A stretch of 64,000 nucleotides of DNA from an uncultured delta proteobacterium (lineage in GTDB: Bacteria > Desulfobacterota > Desulfobacteria > Desulfobacterales > CAVQMW01): NCBI GenBank assembly GCA_963713755.1, contig CAVQMW010000005.1:1588500-1652499 (forward strand). The letters are read 5' to 3'. Position numbers and translations under genes: made by a program. Each line of letters starts with the position of its first letter. The first letter of the stretch is position 1. The notes beneath the pieces were generated by a model. The model searched no databases and was not told where the DNA came from. It saw only the letters and a program-made list of their open reading frames with translations. Positions 43,318 through 51,086 of this stretch are shown in pieces.

Positions 43318-43495
43318 AACTTGAGAGTCAAGAGTTCTCCGTCATGCCGGATTCGATCCGGCATCCATAAATCCCAAGGTACTGGAATTTATCTGAATTC
43401 CCGCCCCCGGCTTACAGCCTGCCGGGGCAGGCTCCGCGAGGATGACAGGACTAACAATCGAACCTAATGATTTCAGTGGGTTAGAAGAACTATAT
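43318..43495 (+). mobile_element. REP-containing MITE-like element, copy 1
   Basis: aacttgagagtcaagagttctccgtcatgccgg...gaattcccgcc...cgcgaggatgac...ttagaagaactat; homologous to the inverted copy at 47286-47348 + 49070-49178. Confidence 0.75.
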
Positions 43496-43686
43496 ACTGG
43501 TCAGATAACAGGTTTTCCCATCATTATTTTTGGGTTTGAGATGATAATCTCGTTCATCTCAAACGCCTTGCCGCTTTGGCAATGAGGAATATTGCGGGTG
43601 GAATCCTCCTGTGGTCCTCTGCTAGTGGGGGCATGCTGCCCGGGATTGAGAGCGCCCGGGGTCAGTAGACCGATGATGAACTCCCT

Positions 43687-45769: not shown

Positions 45770-47210
45770 GCGCGACAGATCTCCAGAGCCCCGGATTCCG
45801 CGGCGGCCCATTCTGATCGTGGACGACGAGGCGCCCATTCTGCTGGCCATTGACACCACCCTGCGCATGGCCGGCATGAACAACCTCATCACCTGCGCGG
45901 ACAGCCGCAAGGTCGAGGCCTTGCTGGCCGAGCAGCCCATCGAGGTGATGCTCCTCGACCTGAACATGCCCCACGTCACCGGCGAGCGGCTGCTGGACAT
46001 GGTCAGCCGGGACCATCCCGATATACCGGTGATCATCGTCACCGGCGCCGTGGACGTGGAGACCGCGGTGCGCTGCATCAAGGTGGGGGCCTTTGACTAC
46101 GTGGTCAAGCCGGTTGAGGAGGAGCGGCTGATCACCGCGGTGAACCGCGCCATCTCCTTTCAGGAGCTGAAGCGGGAGAACCTGGCCCTCAAGCAGCACA
46201 TCCTGGCCGACACCCTGGAGCAGCCCGAGGCCTTCGGCGAGATCGTCACCAACAACCAGAAGATGCTGCTGATTTTTCAGTACATCGAGTCCATCGCGCG
46301 GACCAACCAGCCGGTGCTAATCCGGGGCGAAACCGGCGTGGGTAAGGAACTTATTGCGCGTACCCTACACACCCTGAGCGGCCTTTCGGGCAATTTCGTG
46401 GCCGTGAATGCGGCCGGTCTGGATGACAATGTCTTTTCCGACACCTTGTTTGGGCACGTGCGGGGCGCCTACACCGGCGCGGACCGCACCCGCAGCGGAC
46501 TCATCGAGCAGGCCGCCGGTGGGACCCTCTTTCTGGACGAGATCGGCGACCTCAATCACGCCTCCCAGGTGAAGCTGCTGCGCCTGCTCCAGGAGGGGGA
46601 GTACTTTCCCCTGGGGCGGGACGAACCGCGAAAGTCCGACGCCCGCATGGTGGCCGCCACCAACCGCAATCTCTCCCGGCTGCTGGAAACCGGTGAATTC
46701 CGCAAGGACCTCAACTACCGGCTGCGCACCCACCGGATCTATATTCCGCCGCTGCGGGAGCGTCTGGACGACATTCCCCTGTTGGTGGACCATTTTTTGG
46801 AAGAAACCGCCCAAAGCCTGGGCAAGCCCAAACCGACGCCCCCCGCAGAGTTGTACACGTTGCTGAAGACCTATGCCTTTCCCGGGAATATCCGGGAACT
46901 GCAATCCCTGATCATCGACGCTCTGAGCCGGCACAAATCCGGGGTGCTCTCCCTGGAGGCCTTCCGGGTTCACATCGGCCGCGGGCGGCCGGCGGACGCC
47001 GCGCAGGCAGTCCATCCGCCGGACGGGGTTCCGGATGCCCCCCGGCTGGACTTCCCCGGGCCGGAACTGCCCACCCTTAAACAGGCCACGGAGCTGCTGG
47101 TGCGCGAGGCTTTGCAGCGCGCCGAGGGCAATCAATCGATTGCCGCCGGAATGCTGGGAATCTCCCAGCAGGCCCTCAGCAAGCGGCTAAAAAAGGCGGC
47201 CGCGGAATAG
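45762..47210 (+). CDS. sigma54-dependent response regulator (NtrC family)
   Basis: IVDDE/LDLNMP receiver, GETGVGKE, GAYTGA, LFLDEIG, FPGNIREL, Fis-type HTH. Confidence 0.95.
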   Translation: MHERDRSPEPRIPRRPILIVDDEAPILLAIDTTLRMAGMNNLITCADSRKVEALLAEQPIEVMLLDLNMPHVTGERLLDMVSRDHPDIPVIIVTGAVDVETAVRCIKVGAFDYVVKPVEEERLITAVNRAISFQELKRENLALKQHILADTLEQPEAFGEIVTNNQKMLLIFQYIESIARTNQPVLIRGETGVGKELIARTLHTLSGLSGNFVAVNAAGLDDNVFSDTLFGHVRGAYTGADRTRSGLIEQAAGGTLFLDEIGDLNHASQVKLLRLLQEGEYFPLGRDEPRKSDARMVAATNRNLSRLLETGEFRKDLNYRLRTHRIYIPPLRERLDDIPLLVDHFLEETAQSLGKPKPTPPAELYTLLKTYAFPGNIRELQSLIIDALSRHKSGVLSLEAFRVHIGRGRPADAAQAVHPPDGVPDAPRLDFPGPELPTLKQATELLVREALQRAEGNQSIAAGMLGISQQALSKRLKKAAAE

Positions 47211-47411
47211 GCGCCGTATCGCGCCCGCAGCCCGCGGGTTCCCCATCCCACAAATCACCTCCCTGTGTTCCCAGCTGGTCAGTCCATAGTTCTTCTAAAG
47301 CACTGAGATTATTAGGATCGGTGGGTTAGGCTCGTCATTCCCGCGTAGTTAATCAGGGGAAAGTCAACACAATTTTTTCATGATTCATGTTCTTTGAAAA
47401 TTCGGTAAAGC

Positions 47412-48812
47412 CTACAATTTTGGCAAAATCTCTGCTAAGATATCGCCTAATGGAACGGGGGCTGTGATCCCGGACTTAGTGTCATCGACGCTATGGGACC
47501 GCTTCCGTTCCAGCCTCTTTTTACGCTGGCGTTTGGTAACCGGCGCTTTGGTATCATATTGTTGAAAGCGCCGCGTCGTTAATCCCACCTTGCCTTTGTT
47601 TCCACTCTTTTTGTTTCTCTGCTGATTAGCGATATCGATGTTTGGGTCAAACGGTTTGCTATGTTTCAACATTCCGTAGATGATCCGCAGAATCTTATGC
47701 ATGCAGATACCCATGGCCGCCATGTTGTGTTTACCCCGTTGCTGATGCTTTTCATAAACCTGTTTGATCAGCGGGTTGCTCTTTATCGCCGATAAGGTGA
47801 CCATATACAGAATCTGTCGGGGTGCCTGGCGGCCTTGTTTACTCATCTTCACGGCGCCGACGCCATCCCCACTGATCTTATAGACCGGATGCAGCCCAAA
47901 GAATGAAGCCAGTTTTTTCGCAGTGGCAAAACGCTCGACGGTTTGAATTTCGATCAAAAGTCCGATGGCAGACCAATCACTGATACCAATGAAGCTTTTG
48001 AGCAACTGAACTTCGGGCATCTGACAGTGTTTGGCCATGCGTTCTTTTTGAGTCGCGATGGTTTTTTTCAAATGAAGGATCTGCCGGGCAGTGTCTTTGA
48101 TCAATTGCTGGGTTATCGGGTCTGCGGCTGATGCCACGGAGCGCTTGGCCCCGGCGATGAGCTTCCGGGCACGTTCAATCGTCACCCGGGGAATCCTGGC
48201 CACACTCTTGGCACGGGCTTTCTTCAATTTGGCCGCACCGGGATATTTCACCGAAAGTCTCAGGACCCAATCCGGTACGCCATCCTGGCAGTAGTGTAGC
48301 CATTCGGGACTGGCGGAATATAGCAGGGCATTGAGTTCGTTAAGAAACTGGGTGCACTGTTTGGTCAGCATTTTGATAAAGCCCCACTGCCTTCTCAGTC
48401 CGGCCAGTTGATCGTCTTGCTGATAGGTCACCTTCTCCGGATGGGCCACCAGGTACTCGGCAACGTTTCGGGCGCTGATCTTGTCGGTGGTATTCTTCTT
48501 CAAGTCGGCTTTGCTGTTGTGCACGACGCCAAACGGATTGAGCCGGGCGGTTTGGATATCCAAAGAGCCCTGAAACCGTCGTAATGCATTGTACCAGTTG
48601 TTTTCATAGCCACCGGTACTTTCCATTGCTGCAAACAGGGTTGAATCCGGATGATCGGCCATAAAATCATTGAGCACATCGTAGAGGCTGTTATGACCCT
48701 CAAAGGTATCATCCAATTGAAAGCCCTTAACCACCGGCTGTTTTCGGCTATCGATAATCATGAAGTCAGCATAGCCTTTACTGACGTCAAGACCCAAATA
48801 AAACGGTTGCAT
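47412..48812 (-). CDS. IS110-family recombinase/transposase
   Basis: LGLDVSK, MESTGGY, TTDKISA, FIGI, FGLHPVYKISG, HKILRIIYGMLK; AAGGAGG RBS. Confidence 0.95.
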   Translation of the reverse strand: MQPFYLGLDVSKGYADFMIIDSRKQPVVKGFQLDDTFEGHNSLYDVLNDFMADHPDSTLFAAMESTGGYENNWYNALRRFQGSLDIQTARLNPFGVVHNSKADLKKNTTDKISARNVAEYLVAHPEKVTYQQDDQLAGLRRQWGFIKMLTKQCTQFLNELNALLYSASPEWLHYCQDGVPDWVLRLSVKYPGAAKLKKARAKSVARIPRVTIERARKLIAGAKRSVASAADPITQQLIKDTARQILHLKKTIATQKERMAKHCQMPEVQLLKSFIGISDWSAIGLLIEIQTVERFATAKKLASFFGLHPVYKISGDGVGAVKMSKQGRQAPRQILYMVTLSAIKSNPLIKQVYEKHQQRGKHNMAAMGICMHKILRIIYGMLKHSKPFDPNIDIANQQRNKKSGNKGKVGLTTRRFQQYDTKAPVTKRQRKKRLERKRSHSVDDTKSGITAPVPLGDILAEILPKL

Positions 48813-48838
48813 GACAAACCTCCTTTCGGGGTTTAGAG

Positions 48839-49040
48839 TGCCAGGTATCATCAGCCTTGTTAACATCCGGTGTCATGCACCAAGTTAATCACCGACTTTT
48901 ACCTGGCGGAAGGAAGACACTACGCGACGGGCTCGAAGCCCACGGCGGGATCCTTCTCTTCCACCATTTTATACGGCTTGACCGAATTGAAAAATTTAAA
49001 TTGCGTTTTGGGGGGCCTTGCCCCCCAAACCCCCCGCTTT
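48839..49040 (-). ncRNA. predicted IS110 bridge RNA (5' hairpin, target-binding loop, donor-binding loop); ends approximate
   Basis: Stem-flanked internal loops carry segments matching the target (tcccgcc, cgcgtag) and the donor junction (tgattaacttg, acaag). Confidence 0.8.
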
Positions 49041-49189
49041 TTTTTAATTATTTGTTTTTTAACCATACAAGGCGGTAATCCAGATAGATTCCAATACATT
49101 AGAATCTCTGGATGCCGGATCCGTCATCACGGGCTCGATCCGGGACCGGCATGACGGAGAACTTTGGACTCTCAAGTTTCCAGCAACCC

Positions 49190-49292
49190 CTACAACCTTT
49201 ATTGTGGCTACAACCTAAGTTGTAGCCCCGCCATTTCCCCTTTTTTTAGCCTGGAAGGCCGGGTTTGGGTGCTTCCACAACTTCGGTTGTAG
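49190..49292. promoter_or_regulatory. three palindromic ACAAC-N4-GTTGT boxes, candidate enhancer sites for a sigma54 activator
   Basis: ctacaacctttattgtgg (49190), ggctacaac-ctaa-gttgtagcc (49206-49227), ccacaacttcggttgtag (49275). Confidence 0.7.
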
Positions 49293-49369
49293 GCCTTCAG
49301 TCTGCTTCAATGTGAATTAATAATAAAATAATTAATTAATTTCAGTATCTTATCTTATTTATTCGATTC

Positions 49370-49384
49370 TGGCACACCGCTTGC
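49370..49384 (+). promoter_or_regulatory. sigma54 promoter
   Basis: TGGCAC-accgc-TTGC is a perfect -24/-12 consensus, preceded by an AT-rich tract. Confidence 0.88.
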
Positions 49385-49490
49385 GTTATACTCCTAAGAT
49401 ATTGGCCCAATCCAATAAACTGAATCAAATTCATAAAGCCCCGGTAACGGAACGCAGACCTGAATATCCAAGCACAAGGAGCAAGGCACC

Positions 49491-51086
49491 ATGGCAGGGG
49501 ATGGATTCACCCAGGTGATCAACGATTTGCGAACACCCCTGACCTCGGTACGCTCGCTCTCCGAGATTCTCCATGATTATCCCGATATCACTGGACAGAA
49601 ACGACGGGAATTTCTGGATATCATCCTCCAGGAGACCGAAAAAATGACCGGCATCATCACCCGCGCTGAAGCGCCCGCCGATTCGATATCCGAATCGAAA
49701 GCGGCGCGCGAGGCCCAAACCGGCAACCTAATCACCCGAAAGAAAGGGGCATCGTTCATGAACGAGATCAAAAACAGAGGCTGGAGCGTCACCATGGCCG
49801 GGCTGGGCATCAATCTGGCCCTGGGAATTCTTTACACCTGGAGTATTTTCAAACAGGCGATCAAAGAATCCATTCTCGCCGGGGACGGCCGCTTCACCTG
49901 GGATATCGCCTCGCTCAACGACCCCTTTGCCGTCTGCTGTCTGATGTTCACCATCGCCATGGTCTTTGCCGGCCGGATTCAGGACAAACTCAGCCCGCGC
50001 ATCACCGCGGTGATCGGCGGTATCCTCACCGGCGCCGGATTGATCGTGATCTCTCAATCCAACGCCCTGACCGTTTGGATTCTGGGATTCGGTGTTCTGA
50101 CCGGCCTGGGTCTCGGATTCGGTTATGCGTCGGCCACGCCCCCGGCCATCAAATGGTTTCCGTCTTCCAAGACCGGCATGATCGCCGGAATCGTGGTGGC
50201 CGGCTTCGGTCTGGCCTCGGTCTACATTGCGCCCCTCTCCAATTTTCTGATTGCCAAGTTCGGGCTGAGCCAGGCCATGCTGATTTTCGGTGTGGCCTTT
50301 ATGGGCGTGGTCTGCTTTCTGGCCAAATTCCTGGTCAACCCGCCGGAAGGTTACAGCCCCGCCAGCGTCAAGCCGGCGCCGGGCAAGGCCGCGGCACCCA
50401 AGAGCAGGGACTTTTCTCCCGGGCAAATGCTGCGAACCGGATCGTTCTGGAAATTGTGGTTCATGTATTTTGTGGGTGCCGGGGCGGCCCTGATCATCAT
50501 CGGCGGTGTGGCCGGGATGGCCAAAAAGAGCATGGGCGAGTTGGCCTGGATCGTGGTGGCCTTGATGGCCGTGGGCAATGCCGGGGGGCGGATCGTGGCC
50601 GGGGTGGTGTCCGACAAGATCGGACGTACCGTGACGCTGCTGATCATGATGAGCTTCCAGGCCCTGGTGATCTTCTCCCTGCTCTTCATCGGCGAGACCC
50701 AGGCTTTGCTGCTGGTGGTCGCCGCCACGCTGATCGGCTTTAATTACGGGACCAACCTCTCCCTGTTCCCCTCGGCCACCAAGGACTACTTCGGGTTGAA
50801 AAACTTCGGCATGAACTACGGGCTGGTCTTTTCGGCCTGGGGTGTGGGCGGGTTTGTCTTTCCCCGGGTCTCCCAGATGATCGTGGCCCAAACCGGGTCT
50901 CCCCAAACGGCCTACATCCTGTGCGGGATTCTGTTGATGGCCAGTTCTCTGATGGCCCTCATGACCCGTGCGCCCCAGGAGATCCCCGAAGGTCAGACCA
51001 TCCCCGTGCTGGGCAGATTTCAGGCCAAATTGGCTTTCGCCCGCCAGCAGCCGGTGGACGTCTATTTAGGCGCGCGTCACATTTAA
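49491..51086 (+). CDS. OFA-family (oxalate/formate antiporter-like) MFS transporter with in-frame N-terminal HisKA-like segment; second start at 49758
   Basis: GILYTWSIF, GRIQDK, KWFP..TGM.AG..VAGFG, YFGLKNFGMNYG; N-terminal NDLRTPLTSVRSLSEIL. Confidence 0.88.
   Translation: MAGDGFTQVINDLRTPLTSVRSLSEILHDYPDITGQKRREFLDIILQETEKMTGIITRAEAPADSISESKAAREAQTGNLITRKKGASFMNEIKNRGWSVTMAGLGINLALGILYTWSIFKQAIKESILAGDGRFTWDIASLNDPFAVCCLMFTIAMVFAGRIQDKLSPRITAVIGGILTGAGLIVISQSNALTVWILGFGVLTGLGLGFGYASATPPAIKWFPSSKTGMIAGIVVAGFGLASVYIAPLSNFLIAKFGLSQAMLIFGVAFMGVVCFLAKFLVNPPEGYSPASVKPAPGKAAAPKSRDFSPGQMLRTGSFWKLWFMYFVGAGAALIIIGGVAGMAKKSMGELAWIVVALMAVGNAGGRIVAGVVSDKIGRTVTLLIMMSFQALVIFSLLFIGETQALLLVVAATLIGFNYGTNLSLFPSATKDYFGLKNFGMNYGLVFSAWGVGGFVFPRVSQMIVAQTGSPQTAYILCGILLMASSLMALMTRAPQEIPEGQTIPVLGRFQAKLAFARQQPVDVYLGARHI

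What the first reader, a model, noticed from the sequence alone, without database searches (positions are those of the whole stretch)
48839..48965. IS110 bridge RNA whose target and donor guides can be read directly from the sequence
Seen, on the transposase (minus) strand: a stem ugguggaag/cuuccgcca encloses UCCCGCC (48944-50), a gggc-uucga-gccc hairpin and CGCGUAG (48920-26). These match the left side and complement the right side of the reconstituted insertion site ggattaccgcCTacgcg. There is one mismatch on the left here and a perfect left match to the sister repeat at 43399-43405. A second stem gccaggua/uaccuggc encloses UGAUUAACUUG (48881-91) and ACAAG (48856-60). These match the circle junction ctgattaaCTtgtat (11-nt identity) and complement its right side. 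The two outer stems share a few bases (~48905-08). Established: this is the two-loop architecture of IS110/IS621 bridge RNAs. Inference: this is a natural programmable recombinase aimed at a host repeat family, and a candidate new ortholog for genome engineering.
Basis: partly seen in the sequence, partly recalled or inferred. Interest (0 to 1): 0.88.

Follow-up and report, generated by a model that had tools for sequence, protein, structure and literature searches.

The report
IS110 insertion sequence with bridge RNA
This is a working-looking copy of an IS110-family jumping gene whose own small RNA carries short stretches matching both its landing site and its own joined ends; the kind is well known since 2024, so this is a new example and not a new mechanism.

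Summary
On the minus strand, 49069-47347 is a 1,723-bp IS110-family insertion sequence set at a CT dinucleotide inside a palindromic host repeat. Its 257-nt left end (49069-48813) folds into two stem/internal-loop modules. The loop strands match the left target flank and complement the right target flank. They do the same for the joined right-end/left-end donor.

- The right target guide predicts the right flank at 94-97% per position, against 26-31% for non-cognate pairs.
- The left target guide, left donor guide, right donor guide and the two handshake dinucleotides also co-vary with their DNA partners.
- 21 of 27 stem pairs show compensatory changes.
- Empty copies of the host repeat fix both boundaries.

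The protein passes both Pfam IS110 domains and NCBIfam's 'IS110 family RNA-guided transposase' model. Its nearest solved structures are IS621 and ISCro4.

It is therefore a bridge RNA of the IS621 type: a new member of a known kind, about 20% identical to IS621. No usable RNA data exist and no activity has been shown.

Three clade-specific oddities are worth noting: no Asp at the fourth DEDD position, a conserved 75-residue C-terminal tail, and co-varying internal inverted repeats.

The parts
47347..49069 (-). Whole IS110-family element, 1,723 bp counting one copy of the CT core (47348-47347).
   Evidence: Empty host-repeat copies abut with a 2-nt overlap. Four copies share these ends.
49070..49077 (-). 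Left target: TACCGC (49077-49072) plus core CT (49071-49070). There is one mismatch to the left target guide at 49076.
   Evidence: Copies B and D have TCCCGC, a perfect match.
47342..47348 (-). Core CT (47348-47347) plus right target ACGCG (47346-47342).
   Evidence: It is a perfect complement of the right target guide. Copies B and C have G at the first position, giving a G-U pair.
49062..49067 (-). -10-like hexamer TATGGT at the start of the left end.
   Evidence: Read. With TTGACT at 47367-47362 it forms a 17-nt-spaced promoter only when the ends are joined. The start motif TGTAT/CGTAT was found in 69 of 81 elements.
47362..47367 (-). -35-like hexamer TTGACT in the right end.
   Evidence: A TTGAC-type hexamer at the same distance from the tip occurs in 59 of 81 elements. 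The right tip was located with this motif, so its conservation is partly by construction.
49008..49028 (-). 5' G/C hairpin (optional 5' stem-loop).
   Evidence: fold. It is present only in the closer relatives in alignment A2.
48975..48988 (-). Left copy of the internal inverted repeat (AATTCGGTCAAGCC).
47399..47412 (-). Right copy of the internal inverted repeat. It starts at the last base of the stop codon.
48904..48966 (-). Target-binding loop module: outer stem, internal loop and hairpin 48942-48928.
   Evidence: For helix 1, 8 of 9 pairs show changes on both sides. For helix 2, 4 of 5 do.
48944..48950 (-). Left target guide UCCCGCC (six flank bases plus the first core base). The next base, G 48943, does not match core T.
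48920..48926 (-). Right target guide CGCGUAG (five flank bases plus the CT core).
   Evidence: 94-97% cognate match over 31 guide types.
48918..48919 (-). Handshake dinucleotide of the target loop (UG). U 48919 can pair with donor position 7 (A).
   Evidence: 47 of 48 orthologues pair here.
48840..48907 (-). Donor-binding loop module: outer stem, inner helix and hairpin 48882-48868.
   Evidence: helices 3-5.
48881..48891 (-). Left donor guide UGAUUAA plus CU core plus UG.
   Evidence: the 7-nt guide equals the right-end tip in 42 of 48 elements.
48856..48860 (-). Right donor guide ACAAG (complement of CT+TGT).
   Evidence: the variable base agrees with the first base of the left end in 66 of 66.
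48854..48855 (-). Handshake dinucleotide of the donor loop (GC), complementary to target positions 6-7 (GC).
   Evidence: position 215 pairs with target position 7 in 37 of 64, against a shuffle mean of 22.8.
47412..48812 (-). Transposase gene, 466 aa, ATG 48812-48810, ribosome-binding site AAAGGAGG 48826-48819.

Best explanation
This is an IS110-type (IS621-like) insertion sequence.

Inferred from the IS621 precedent:
- When the element leaves the chromosome as a circle, its right and left tips join at the CT core.
- The join places a -35 box (right end) 17 nt from a -10 box (left end).
- Transcription from that promoter then runs through the left end and yields a bridge RNA of roughly 220 nt, followed by the transposase message.

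The first module of the RNA holds the target. [quoted passage not shown] The second module holds the joined ends of the element in the same way. Two dinucleotides just 3' of the right guides can pair with the other DNA after strand exchange.

The transposase has a RuvC-like domain, a long coiled coil and a Tnp domain with Ser314. It would cut next to the CT and exchange strands, inserting the element into a 13-bp site. That site lies in the loop and arms of an 8-bp palindrome carried by a host repeat.

Shown here:
- the anatomy and the boundaries;
- family membership of the protein;
- covariation of all four guides and both handshake positions with their DNA partners;
- covariation of the stems.

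Inferred only: transcription, circle formation, catalysis and reprogrammability.
For: Boundaries and copies:
- Searches show 3 full copies at 98-100% identity and one 671-nt stump.
- The left-end RNA region is identical in all four except for the length of an A run.

Protein:
- Pfam PF01548 scores 55.6 bits and PF02371 63.3 bits, both above their cut-offs.
- NCBIfam NF033542 'IS110 family RNA-guided transposase' scores 150.2 bits against a cut-off of 140.
- The only solved relatives by sequence are IS621 and ISCro4.
- The ten best Foldseek hits are chains of those two (E 5e-12 to 2e-9, but TM only 0.46-0.49 on a model of mean pLDDT 63.8).
- Ser314 aligns with the catalytic serine of IS621 and is invariant in 20 of 20 aligned homologues.

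Guides:
- Right target guide: 31 distinct guide types gave cognate matches of 0.97/0.94/0.94/0.97/0.94 at the five flank positions, against 0.26-0.31 for non-cognate pairs, with 0 of 20,000 shuffles as high.
- Left target guide: 54 types averaged 6.22 of 9 against 4.05, with 0 of 20,000 shuffles as high.
- Left donor guide: it equals the right-end tip in 42 of 48 elements.
- Right donor guide: its variable base agrees with the left end in 66 of 66.
- Handshake positions: 47 of 48 and 37 of 64 pair with the non-cognate DNA; 6 of 64 and 0 of 48 pair with the cognate DNA.

Structure:
- 94.3% of cells are paired, against 35-54% when the partner is slid.
- 21 of 27 pairs changed on both sides.
- 0 of 500 shuffles reached any measure.

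The strand rules match the published model (PMC11208160 passages; PMC11208158 passages).
Against: - No RNA evidence. The single metatranscriptome run held only short contigs, mostly of relatives.
- No circle-junction sequence was seen.
- No Rfam family matched the region.
- The left target guide is the weakest guide. 10 of 54 orthologues match their left flank at only 3-4 of 9 positions, and the window's own site has one mismatch.
- The base after the left guide does not match the second core base.
- The fourth DEDD residue, essential in IS621 (PMC11208158 passage), is Ser here.
- The right tip was located with a motif that includes the -35 box. Its conservation is therefore not independent, although the right-flank/guide match validates the tip.
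- Four right-flank outliers exist: L041 2 of 7, L074 3 of 7, L053 and L081 4 of 7.
Confidence: 0.93

Rival explanations
1. The left end is only a structured leader or attenuator of the transposase message. On this view the matches to target and donor are coincidence, or are by-products of the element sitting in a repeat.
For: The RNA abuts the ribosome-binding site with no terminator between them. The 5-nt right donor guide alone is expected by chance in about 30% of shuffles.
Against: The loop sequences change together with flanks and tips across 31-54 independent guide types. A leader has no reason to do this. Both target 7-mers together appeared in 8 of 200,000 shuffles.
Confidence: 0.02
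2. The element is a bridge-RNA insertion sequence but is no longer active in this genome. On this view the clade's loss of the fourth catalytic Asp marks a crippled enzyme.
For: Ser (or Ala) stands in place of IS621 D105. One copy carries a 25-nt duplication that breaks the frame at codons 9-17, and one is a stump. There are only 3.5 copies although 24 perfect sites exist.
Against: Copies are 98-100% identical and sit at different sites. The frame is open in two copies. The Ser/Ala state is shared by 79 of 79 readable clade members spread over several phyla, with guides that keep tracking new targets. That pattern requires continued transposition.
Confidence: 0.1
3. The element moves mainly by a route that needs only the target-binding module: the short seekRNA or 'TBL-only' direct-transfer pathway reported for other IS110 elements. 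On this view the full two-loop RNA is secondary.
For: Such RNAs and pathways are reported for IS110-type elements (PMC11187229 passages; bioRxiv 10.1101/2025.10.25.684509 passages). A weak promoter-like site lies just 5' of the target module (48993-48966, 9 of 12 matches).
Against: The donor module is as conserved as the target module and co-varies with the tips. Sequence alone cannot say which RNA species exist.
Confidence: 0.15

Closest known systems
IS621 of Escherichia coli and its bridge RNA (also ISCro4)
   Same: - The non-coding RNA lies 5' of the transposase.
- The module order is the same: target loop first, donor loop second.
- The strand rules are the same: the 5' loop strand equals the top strand on the left, and the 3' loop strand complements the top strand on the right, core included.
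- Both have a CT core.
- Handshake dinucleotides lie 3' of the right guides.
- The -35/-10 pair is split between right and left ends.
- The target lies in a palindromic host repeat.
- Both have RuvC-like and Tnp domains with a catalytic Ser.

Sources: for IS621; for this element.
   Different: - The protein is 466 aa against 326. It is about 20% identical in the fold alignment and has a longer middle region (one search shows helices 135-262).
- It carries a conserved basic tail beyond residue ~390.
- The right target guide covers core+5 here, against core+2 in wild-type IS621 (PMC11208160 passage).
- The fourth DEDD residue is Ser.
- Internal inverted repeats are present.
IS110-type seekRNA elements (Siddiquee et al. 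2024)
   Same: This is the same entity under another name: an upstream non-coding region gives an RNA with short matches to both strands of the target (PMC11187229 passages).
   Different: [quoted passage not shown] This clade has inverted repeats, but they are internal (82-95 nt from the left tip and 53-66 nt from the right tip here), not the IS1111 kind at 7 and 3 bp from the tips.
ISPpu9 / ISPpu10 of Pseudomonas putida
   Same: These are IS110 elements that insert into repetitive palindromic or stem-loop host sequences (abstracts only).
   Different: No sequence comparison was made. In ISPpu10 the stem-loop is a 5' extension of the target. Here the core lies in the loop of the palindrome itself.
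CazIS110-1 of Caloranaerobacter azorensis
   Same: It is a characterised long-form IS110 transposase whose catalytic residues are given as E60 and S312 (bioRxiv 10.1101/2025.10.25.684509 passage). These are close to E64 and S314 here.

Membership tests
IS110 family transposase | N-terminal RuvC-like domain (Pfam PF01548) | tested here: met
   55.6 bits against a cut-off of 29, residues 6-168.
IS110 family transposase | C-terminal Tnp domain (Pfam PF02371) with the conserved serine | tested here: met
   63.3 bits against a cut-off of 21.3. Ser314-Gly315 aligns with the IS621 catalytic Ser-Gly and is invariant in A1 and A3.
IS110 family transposase | Complete DEDD motif (IS621 D11, E60, D102, D105) | tested here: not met
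   D9, E64 and D110 align, but the fourth position is Ser113. Of 79 readable clade members, 76 have Ser, 3 have Ala and 0 have Asp. The N-terminal alignment to IS621 is weak overall (6-7 bits), but the TDxx[D/S]A block aligns cleanly. Membership by the curated whole-protein model is still met (next row), so I file this as a variant inside the family.
IS110 family transposase | Curated whole-protein model | tested here: met
   NCBIfam NF033542 'IS110 family RNA-guided transposase' scores 150.2 bits against a cut-off of 140.
IS110-type element (as against IS1111-type) | Long non-coding region upstream of the transposase gene | tested here: met
   257 nt lie upstream and 65 nt downstream of the gene. 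The rule is from PMC11187229.
IS110-type element (as against IS1111-type) | No terminal inverted repeats, and no target duplication beyond the core | tested here: met
   The tips are not inverted copies of each other. Empty sites overlap by the CT only. Internal inverted repeats exist but lie far from the tips.
Bridge RNA (IS621 type) | Two stem/internal-loop/hairpin modules supported by covariation | tested here: met
   27 pairs, 94.3% paired, 21 with compensatory change, 0 of 500 shuffles as high. RNAalifold independently finds 18 pairs, 13 of them compensatory. It did not find the outer stem of the target module.
Bridge RNA (IS621 type) | Target-loop strands match the left flank (same sense) and the right flank (complement), core included, and co-vary with them | tested here: met
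   The left guide is weaker than the right, and the second core base is not matched by the left guide in the window.
Bridge RNA (IS621 type) | Donor-loop strands match the right tip and complement the left tip, and co-vary with them | tested here: met
   42 of 48 exact for the left donor guide, and 66 of 66 at the variable right-donor position.
Bridge RNA (IS621 type) | Handshake guides pair with the non-cognate DNA and not the cognate one | tested here: met
   In the window 3 of the 4 handshake bases fit; G 48918 does not.
Bridge RNA (IS621 type) | The RNA is made and binds the transposase; recombination depends on it | not testable with these tools
   The only RNA run was uninformative.
Bridge RNA (IS621 type) | Promoter assembled at the joined ends | tested here: inconclusive
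   TTGACT, a 17-nt spacer and TATGGT appear only across the joint (read). In the integrated copy no such site was found at the left tip. No circle was observed.

The most novel reading that the evidence does not exclude
This deep clade spans Desulfobacterota, Bacteroidota, Ignavibacteriota and other metagenome bins at 44-80% protein identity. It may be a distinct sub-type of bridge recombinase with three linked departures from IS621:
- an active site that works without the fourth DEDD aspartate;
- a conserved basic C-terminal tail of about 75 residues;
- a pair of internal inverted repeats, one just 5' of the target module and one at the stop codon, that evolve together.

The boldest reading is that the repeats add a layer that IS621 lacks. 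They could be a second, protein-read end-recognition signal, with the tail as reader. Or they could be a 5'-3' RNA duplex that closes the bridge-RNA/transposase transcript and sets RNA processing or dosage.
Probability: 0.2. Interest if true: 0.55.

Novelty: new member of a known kind. Interest (0 to 1): 0.3.

Why it matters
For biology, this is a clean natural example of a bridge-RNA element homing to a palindromic host repeat. Its 80 relatives form a ready-made covariation set that reproduces the IS621 rules, handshake guides included, in a lineage only about 20% identical to IS621. That generality is useful but expected.

For engineering, it is one more candidate orthologue. It has a naturally long right target guide (core+5), giving a 13-bp site, and a divergent protein. 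Its value depends on activity that has not been tested.

The clade-specific features (no fourth Asp, C-terminal tail, co-varying internal repeats) are the only parts a specialist might not predict.

Tried and rejected
- Rfam scan of 47000-49500 at E up to 1. It gave only two sub-threshold chance-level hits (Clostridiales-2 at 22.6 bits against 58.6; blv_FSE). No bridge-RNA family matched. I cannot say whether Rfam 15 holds one.

- RNA evidence. One sediment metatranscriptome run held 16% of the sampled words. Laid on the element, it gave six short contigs at 85-99% likeness. One of them spans an empty host repeat (joint 47345 to 49070). One 58-nt piece lies over 48839-48896 with 8 differences and then runs on into unlike sequence. 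This shows neither transcription of this element nor its absence.

- Fixed-register comparison of the left target guide understated the match, because some orthologues carry the guide shifted by 1-2 nt. I repeated it with the same register freedom for cognate and shuffled pairs.

- RNAalifold did not predict the outer stem of the target module. I tested it explicitly (helix 1). It is 85.4% paired, the weakest helix, with 8 of 9 pairs showing double changes.

- Structure prediction was mediocre: mean pLDDT 63.8, and below 50 for residues 78-110, which include the third and fourth DEDD positions. It cannot show whether another acidic residue fills the active site. The fold search supports the family only.

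- I looked for other IS110-family genes in the same genome for an internal comparison. Only the four copies of this element were found.

- The plasmid collection gave nothing closer than 27% identity.

- I considered that the sister repeat at 43318-43504 was a second target. It carries the left half only.

- Rows dropped. L035, L050 and L051 were left out of alignment A2 as near-duplicates of L034 and L049. 12 of 81 elements had no recognisable left tip and 22 of 81 no recognisable right tip, mostly at contig ends. L075 and L105 have broken frames.

- Supplementary files of the papers were not seen. Durrant et al.'s supplementary orthologue lists may already contain this clade.

Full report
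**What is there**

Reading the minus strand, the region 49069-47347 is a compact mobile element. It has three parts:
- a 257-nt non-coding left end (49069-48813);
- a 466-codon gene (ATG 48812, stop 47414-47412) preceded by AAAGGAGG;
- a 65-nt right end.

The gene product matches both Pfam domains of IS110 transposases above their cut-offs (PF01548 at 55.6 bits, PF02371 at 63.3 bits). It also matches NCBIfam NF033542, 'IS110 family RNA-guided transposase', at 150.2 bits against a cut-off of 140. The only solved structures found by sequence are the IS621 and ISCro4 recombinases. A predicted model (mean pLDDT 63.8) has those two as its ten best Foldseek hits, followed by Nop5 and TIGR-Tas proteins.

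**Boundaries**

The window's genome holds three full copies (100, 99 and 98% identical) and a 671-nt stump. It also holds about sixty short matches to the 50 bases on either side of the element. Those short matches belong to a host repeat. In at least 12 uninterrupted copies the left-flank match and the right-flank match overlap by exactly two bases, the CT core. The element is therefore 1,723 bp counting one CT, and it creates no other duplication.

The four copies sit at these sites:
- ...ATTACCGC-CT-ACGCGGG (the window);
- ...ATTCCCGC-CT-GCGCGGG;
- ...TGCCCCGC-CT-GCGCGGG;
- ...ATTCCCGC-CT (the stump).

**The observation**

Every string and coordinate in the finding is right. In 200,000 shuffles of the left end, the two target 7-mers occurred together 8 times and the 11-nt donor identity 8 times. 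The 5-nt right donor guide alone is not significant.

**Testing the interpretation**

The protein has more than 2,600 relatives in the large protein collection. The best 120 are 70-81% identical and mostly from metagenomes. Two of them are named IS110 family transposase of Desulfobacterales.

A scan of one genome per species returned 224 relatives, of which 80 loci at 44-75% identity were kept. I located left tips by the conserved start of the element in 69 of 81 elements, window included. I located right tips by a conserved right-end motif in 59 of 81, and both tips in 51. I aligned 66 left ends.

The published rule is as follows (PMC11208160, passages). The 5' strand of each loop pairs with the bottom strand on the left. 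The 3' strand pairs with the top strand on the right. The core is included in both. The results against that rule:

- **Right target guide.** In 31 distinct guide types, the reverse complement equals the five bases after the core at 0.97, 0.94, 0.94, 0.97 and 0.94. Non-cognate pairs give 0.26-0.31. Agreement drops to 0.06 beyond the fifth base. 0 of 20,000 shuffles reached the observed sum. The exceptions are L041, L074, L053 and L081.
- **Left target guide.** With equal register freedom, 54 types match 6.22 of 9 bases against 4.05 for non-cognate pairs, with 0 of 20,000 shuffles as high. 26 of 54 match at 7 or more positions, and 10 of 54 at 4 or fewer.
- **Left donor guide.** It is identical to the last seven bases before the core in 42 of 48 elements, across seven different tip sequences.
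- **Right donor guide.** Its one variable base follows the first base of the left end in 66 of 66.
- **Handshake guides** (defined in PMC11208158, passages).
  - The base after the right target guide pairs with donor position 7 in 47 of 48, and with its own target in 6 of 64.
  - The base after the right donor guide pairs with target position 7 in 37 of 64 (shuffle mean 22.8; 0 of 20,000 as high), and with its own donor in 0 of 48.
  - In the window, three of the four handshake bases fit.

**Structure**

RNAalifold on the 66 sequences finds both hairpins and the donor-module stems: 18 pairs, 13 of them compensatory. My fuller structure, which adds the outer stem of the target module, has 27 pairs with 94.3% of cells paired. 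Sliding the partner gives 35-54%. 21 pairs changed on both sides, and 0 of 500 shuffles reached any measure.

**Target**

The 13-bp site occurs 24 times in the genome where about 0.3 would be expected (my estimate from genome size). With one exception among the 28 relaxed hits listed, the sites lie in repeats, mostly a repeat of roughly 190 nt.

The site is the centre of an 8-bp perfect palindrome. The CT lies at the start of its 4-nt loop. 21 of the 24 sites have G after the core, which forms a G-U pair with the guide. 3 have A, which forms a Watson-Crick pair, as at the window's site. The nearby sister repeat keeps only the left half.

**Promoter**

TTGACT (47367-47362) and TATGGT (49067-49062) are 17 nt apart only if the tips are joined. 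The integrated left tip has no -35 partner. This is the arrangement reported for IS621 (PMC11208160 passage). It is inferred here, not observed.

**Departures from IS621**

1. The fourth DEDD position (IS621 D105, essential there; PMC11208158 passage) is Ser113. Two ordinary plasmid IS110 transposases have Asp in that column. Of 79 readable clade members, 76 have Ser, 3 have Ala and none has Asp.
2. The protein is 140 residues longer than IS621. It has a longer helical middle and a basic tail after about residue 390. The tail is conserved in the clade and absent from the two plasmid proteins.
3. The left and right ends carry an inverted repeat well inside the tips. 33 of 51 elements score 10 or more, against 2 of 51 for the same-strand control. 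Cognate pairs average 11.22 against 8.61 for non-cognate pairs, with 0 of 5,000 shuffles as high. Siddiquee et al. state that subterminal inverted repeats are absent from the IS110 type and lie 7 and 3 bp from the tips in IS1111 (PMC11187229 passages). These repeats are therefore something else. The few mismatches seen are not enriched for G-U in the sense strand (read by eye), so I cannot say whether RNA or protein reads them.
4. The left target guide does not match the second core base in the window. The left donor guide matches it in only 30 of 66 orthologues.

**Verdict**

The thing belongs to a kind described in 2024 and now annotated automatically, so it is a new member of a known kind with modest interest. 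Expression and activity remain untested. The only RNA data set was uninformative.

**Papers**

I saw passages of PMC11208160, PMC11208158, PMC11187229 and bioRxiv 10.1101/2025.10.25.684509. I saw abstracts and outlines of PMC13626964 and bioRxiv 10.64898/2026.03.19.712850. All others I saw only in the search listings. In those three searches I found no paper that describes this clade. None held 'Desulfobacterales' together with the other two terms.

Noticed in passing
window 48975-48988 and 47399-47412 (minus strand); same feature in L032-L104: Internal inverted repeats lie in the left and right ends and change together across orthologues. In some distant relatives (L084, L095) they reach 22-23 perfect bases. 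The right copy begins at the stop codon and the left copy lies just 5' of the target-binding module.
   Followed up: partly
window 48476-48474 (codon 113 of the transposase): The fourth residue of the DEDD motif is Ser. It is Ser or Ala, never Asp, in every readable member of the clade.
   Followed up: partly
window 47412-47640 (last ~75 codons): A conserved, strongly basic C-terminal extension has no counterpart in IS621 or in two plasmid IS110 transposases. It is predicted with low confidence.
   Followed up: no
L004:2172-3395 (own genome, contig C7): The stump copy of the element is cut off after 671 nt. Next to it lies a 367-aa ORF with a Y1_Tnp (IS200-like) domain and a weak DnaA-type helix-turn-helix. 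It scores 70.9 bits against NCBIfam's REP-associated tyrosine transposase model (cut-off 80). It could be linked to the palindromic repeats that the element targets.
   Followed up: partly
L003 / own genome C7:483276-485042: Copy C carries a 25-nt tandem duplication at codons 9-17 that breaks the frame. It sits in a different repeat context, sharing only the bases nearest the core. Copy B has a 23-nt tandem duplication of its right flank.
   Followed up: partly
window 43318-43504 and flanks 47275-47346 / 49070-49178: A host repeat of roughly 190 nt is present in dozens of copies in the genome. Its centre is an 8-bp palindrome. The sister copy in the window has about 30 nt of other sequence in place of the palindrome's loop and right arm.
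   Followed up: partly
L033, L047, L049, L050, L054, L090, L096 (flanks of orthologues): In many orthologues the left flank resembles core plus right flank, so the empty site is a short tandem repeat of 7-8 nt. The left and right target guides of those RNAs are then complementary to each other and could close the target loop in the free RNA.
   Followed up: no
window 48993-48966 (minus strand): A weak promoter-like site (TTTTCA, 16-nt spacer, TAAAAT; 9 of 12 matches) overlaps the left internal repeat and would start an RNA inside the 5' stem of the target module. Four such sites were found in the region, against a mean of 2.5 in shuffles.
   Followed up: no
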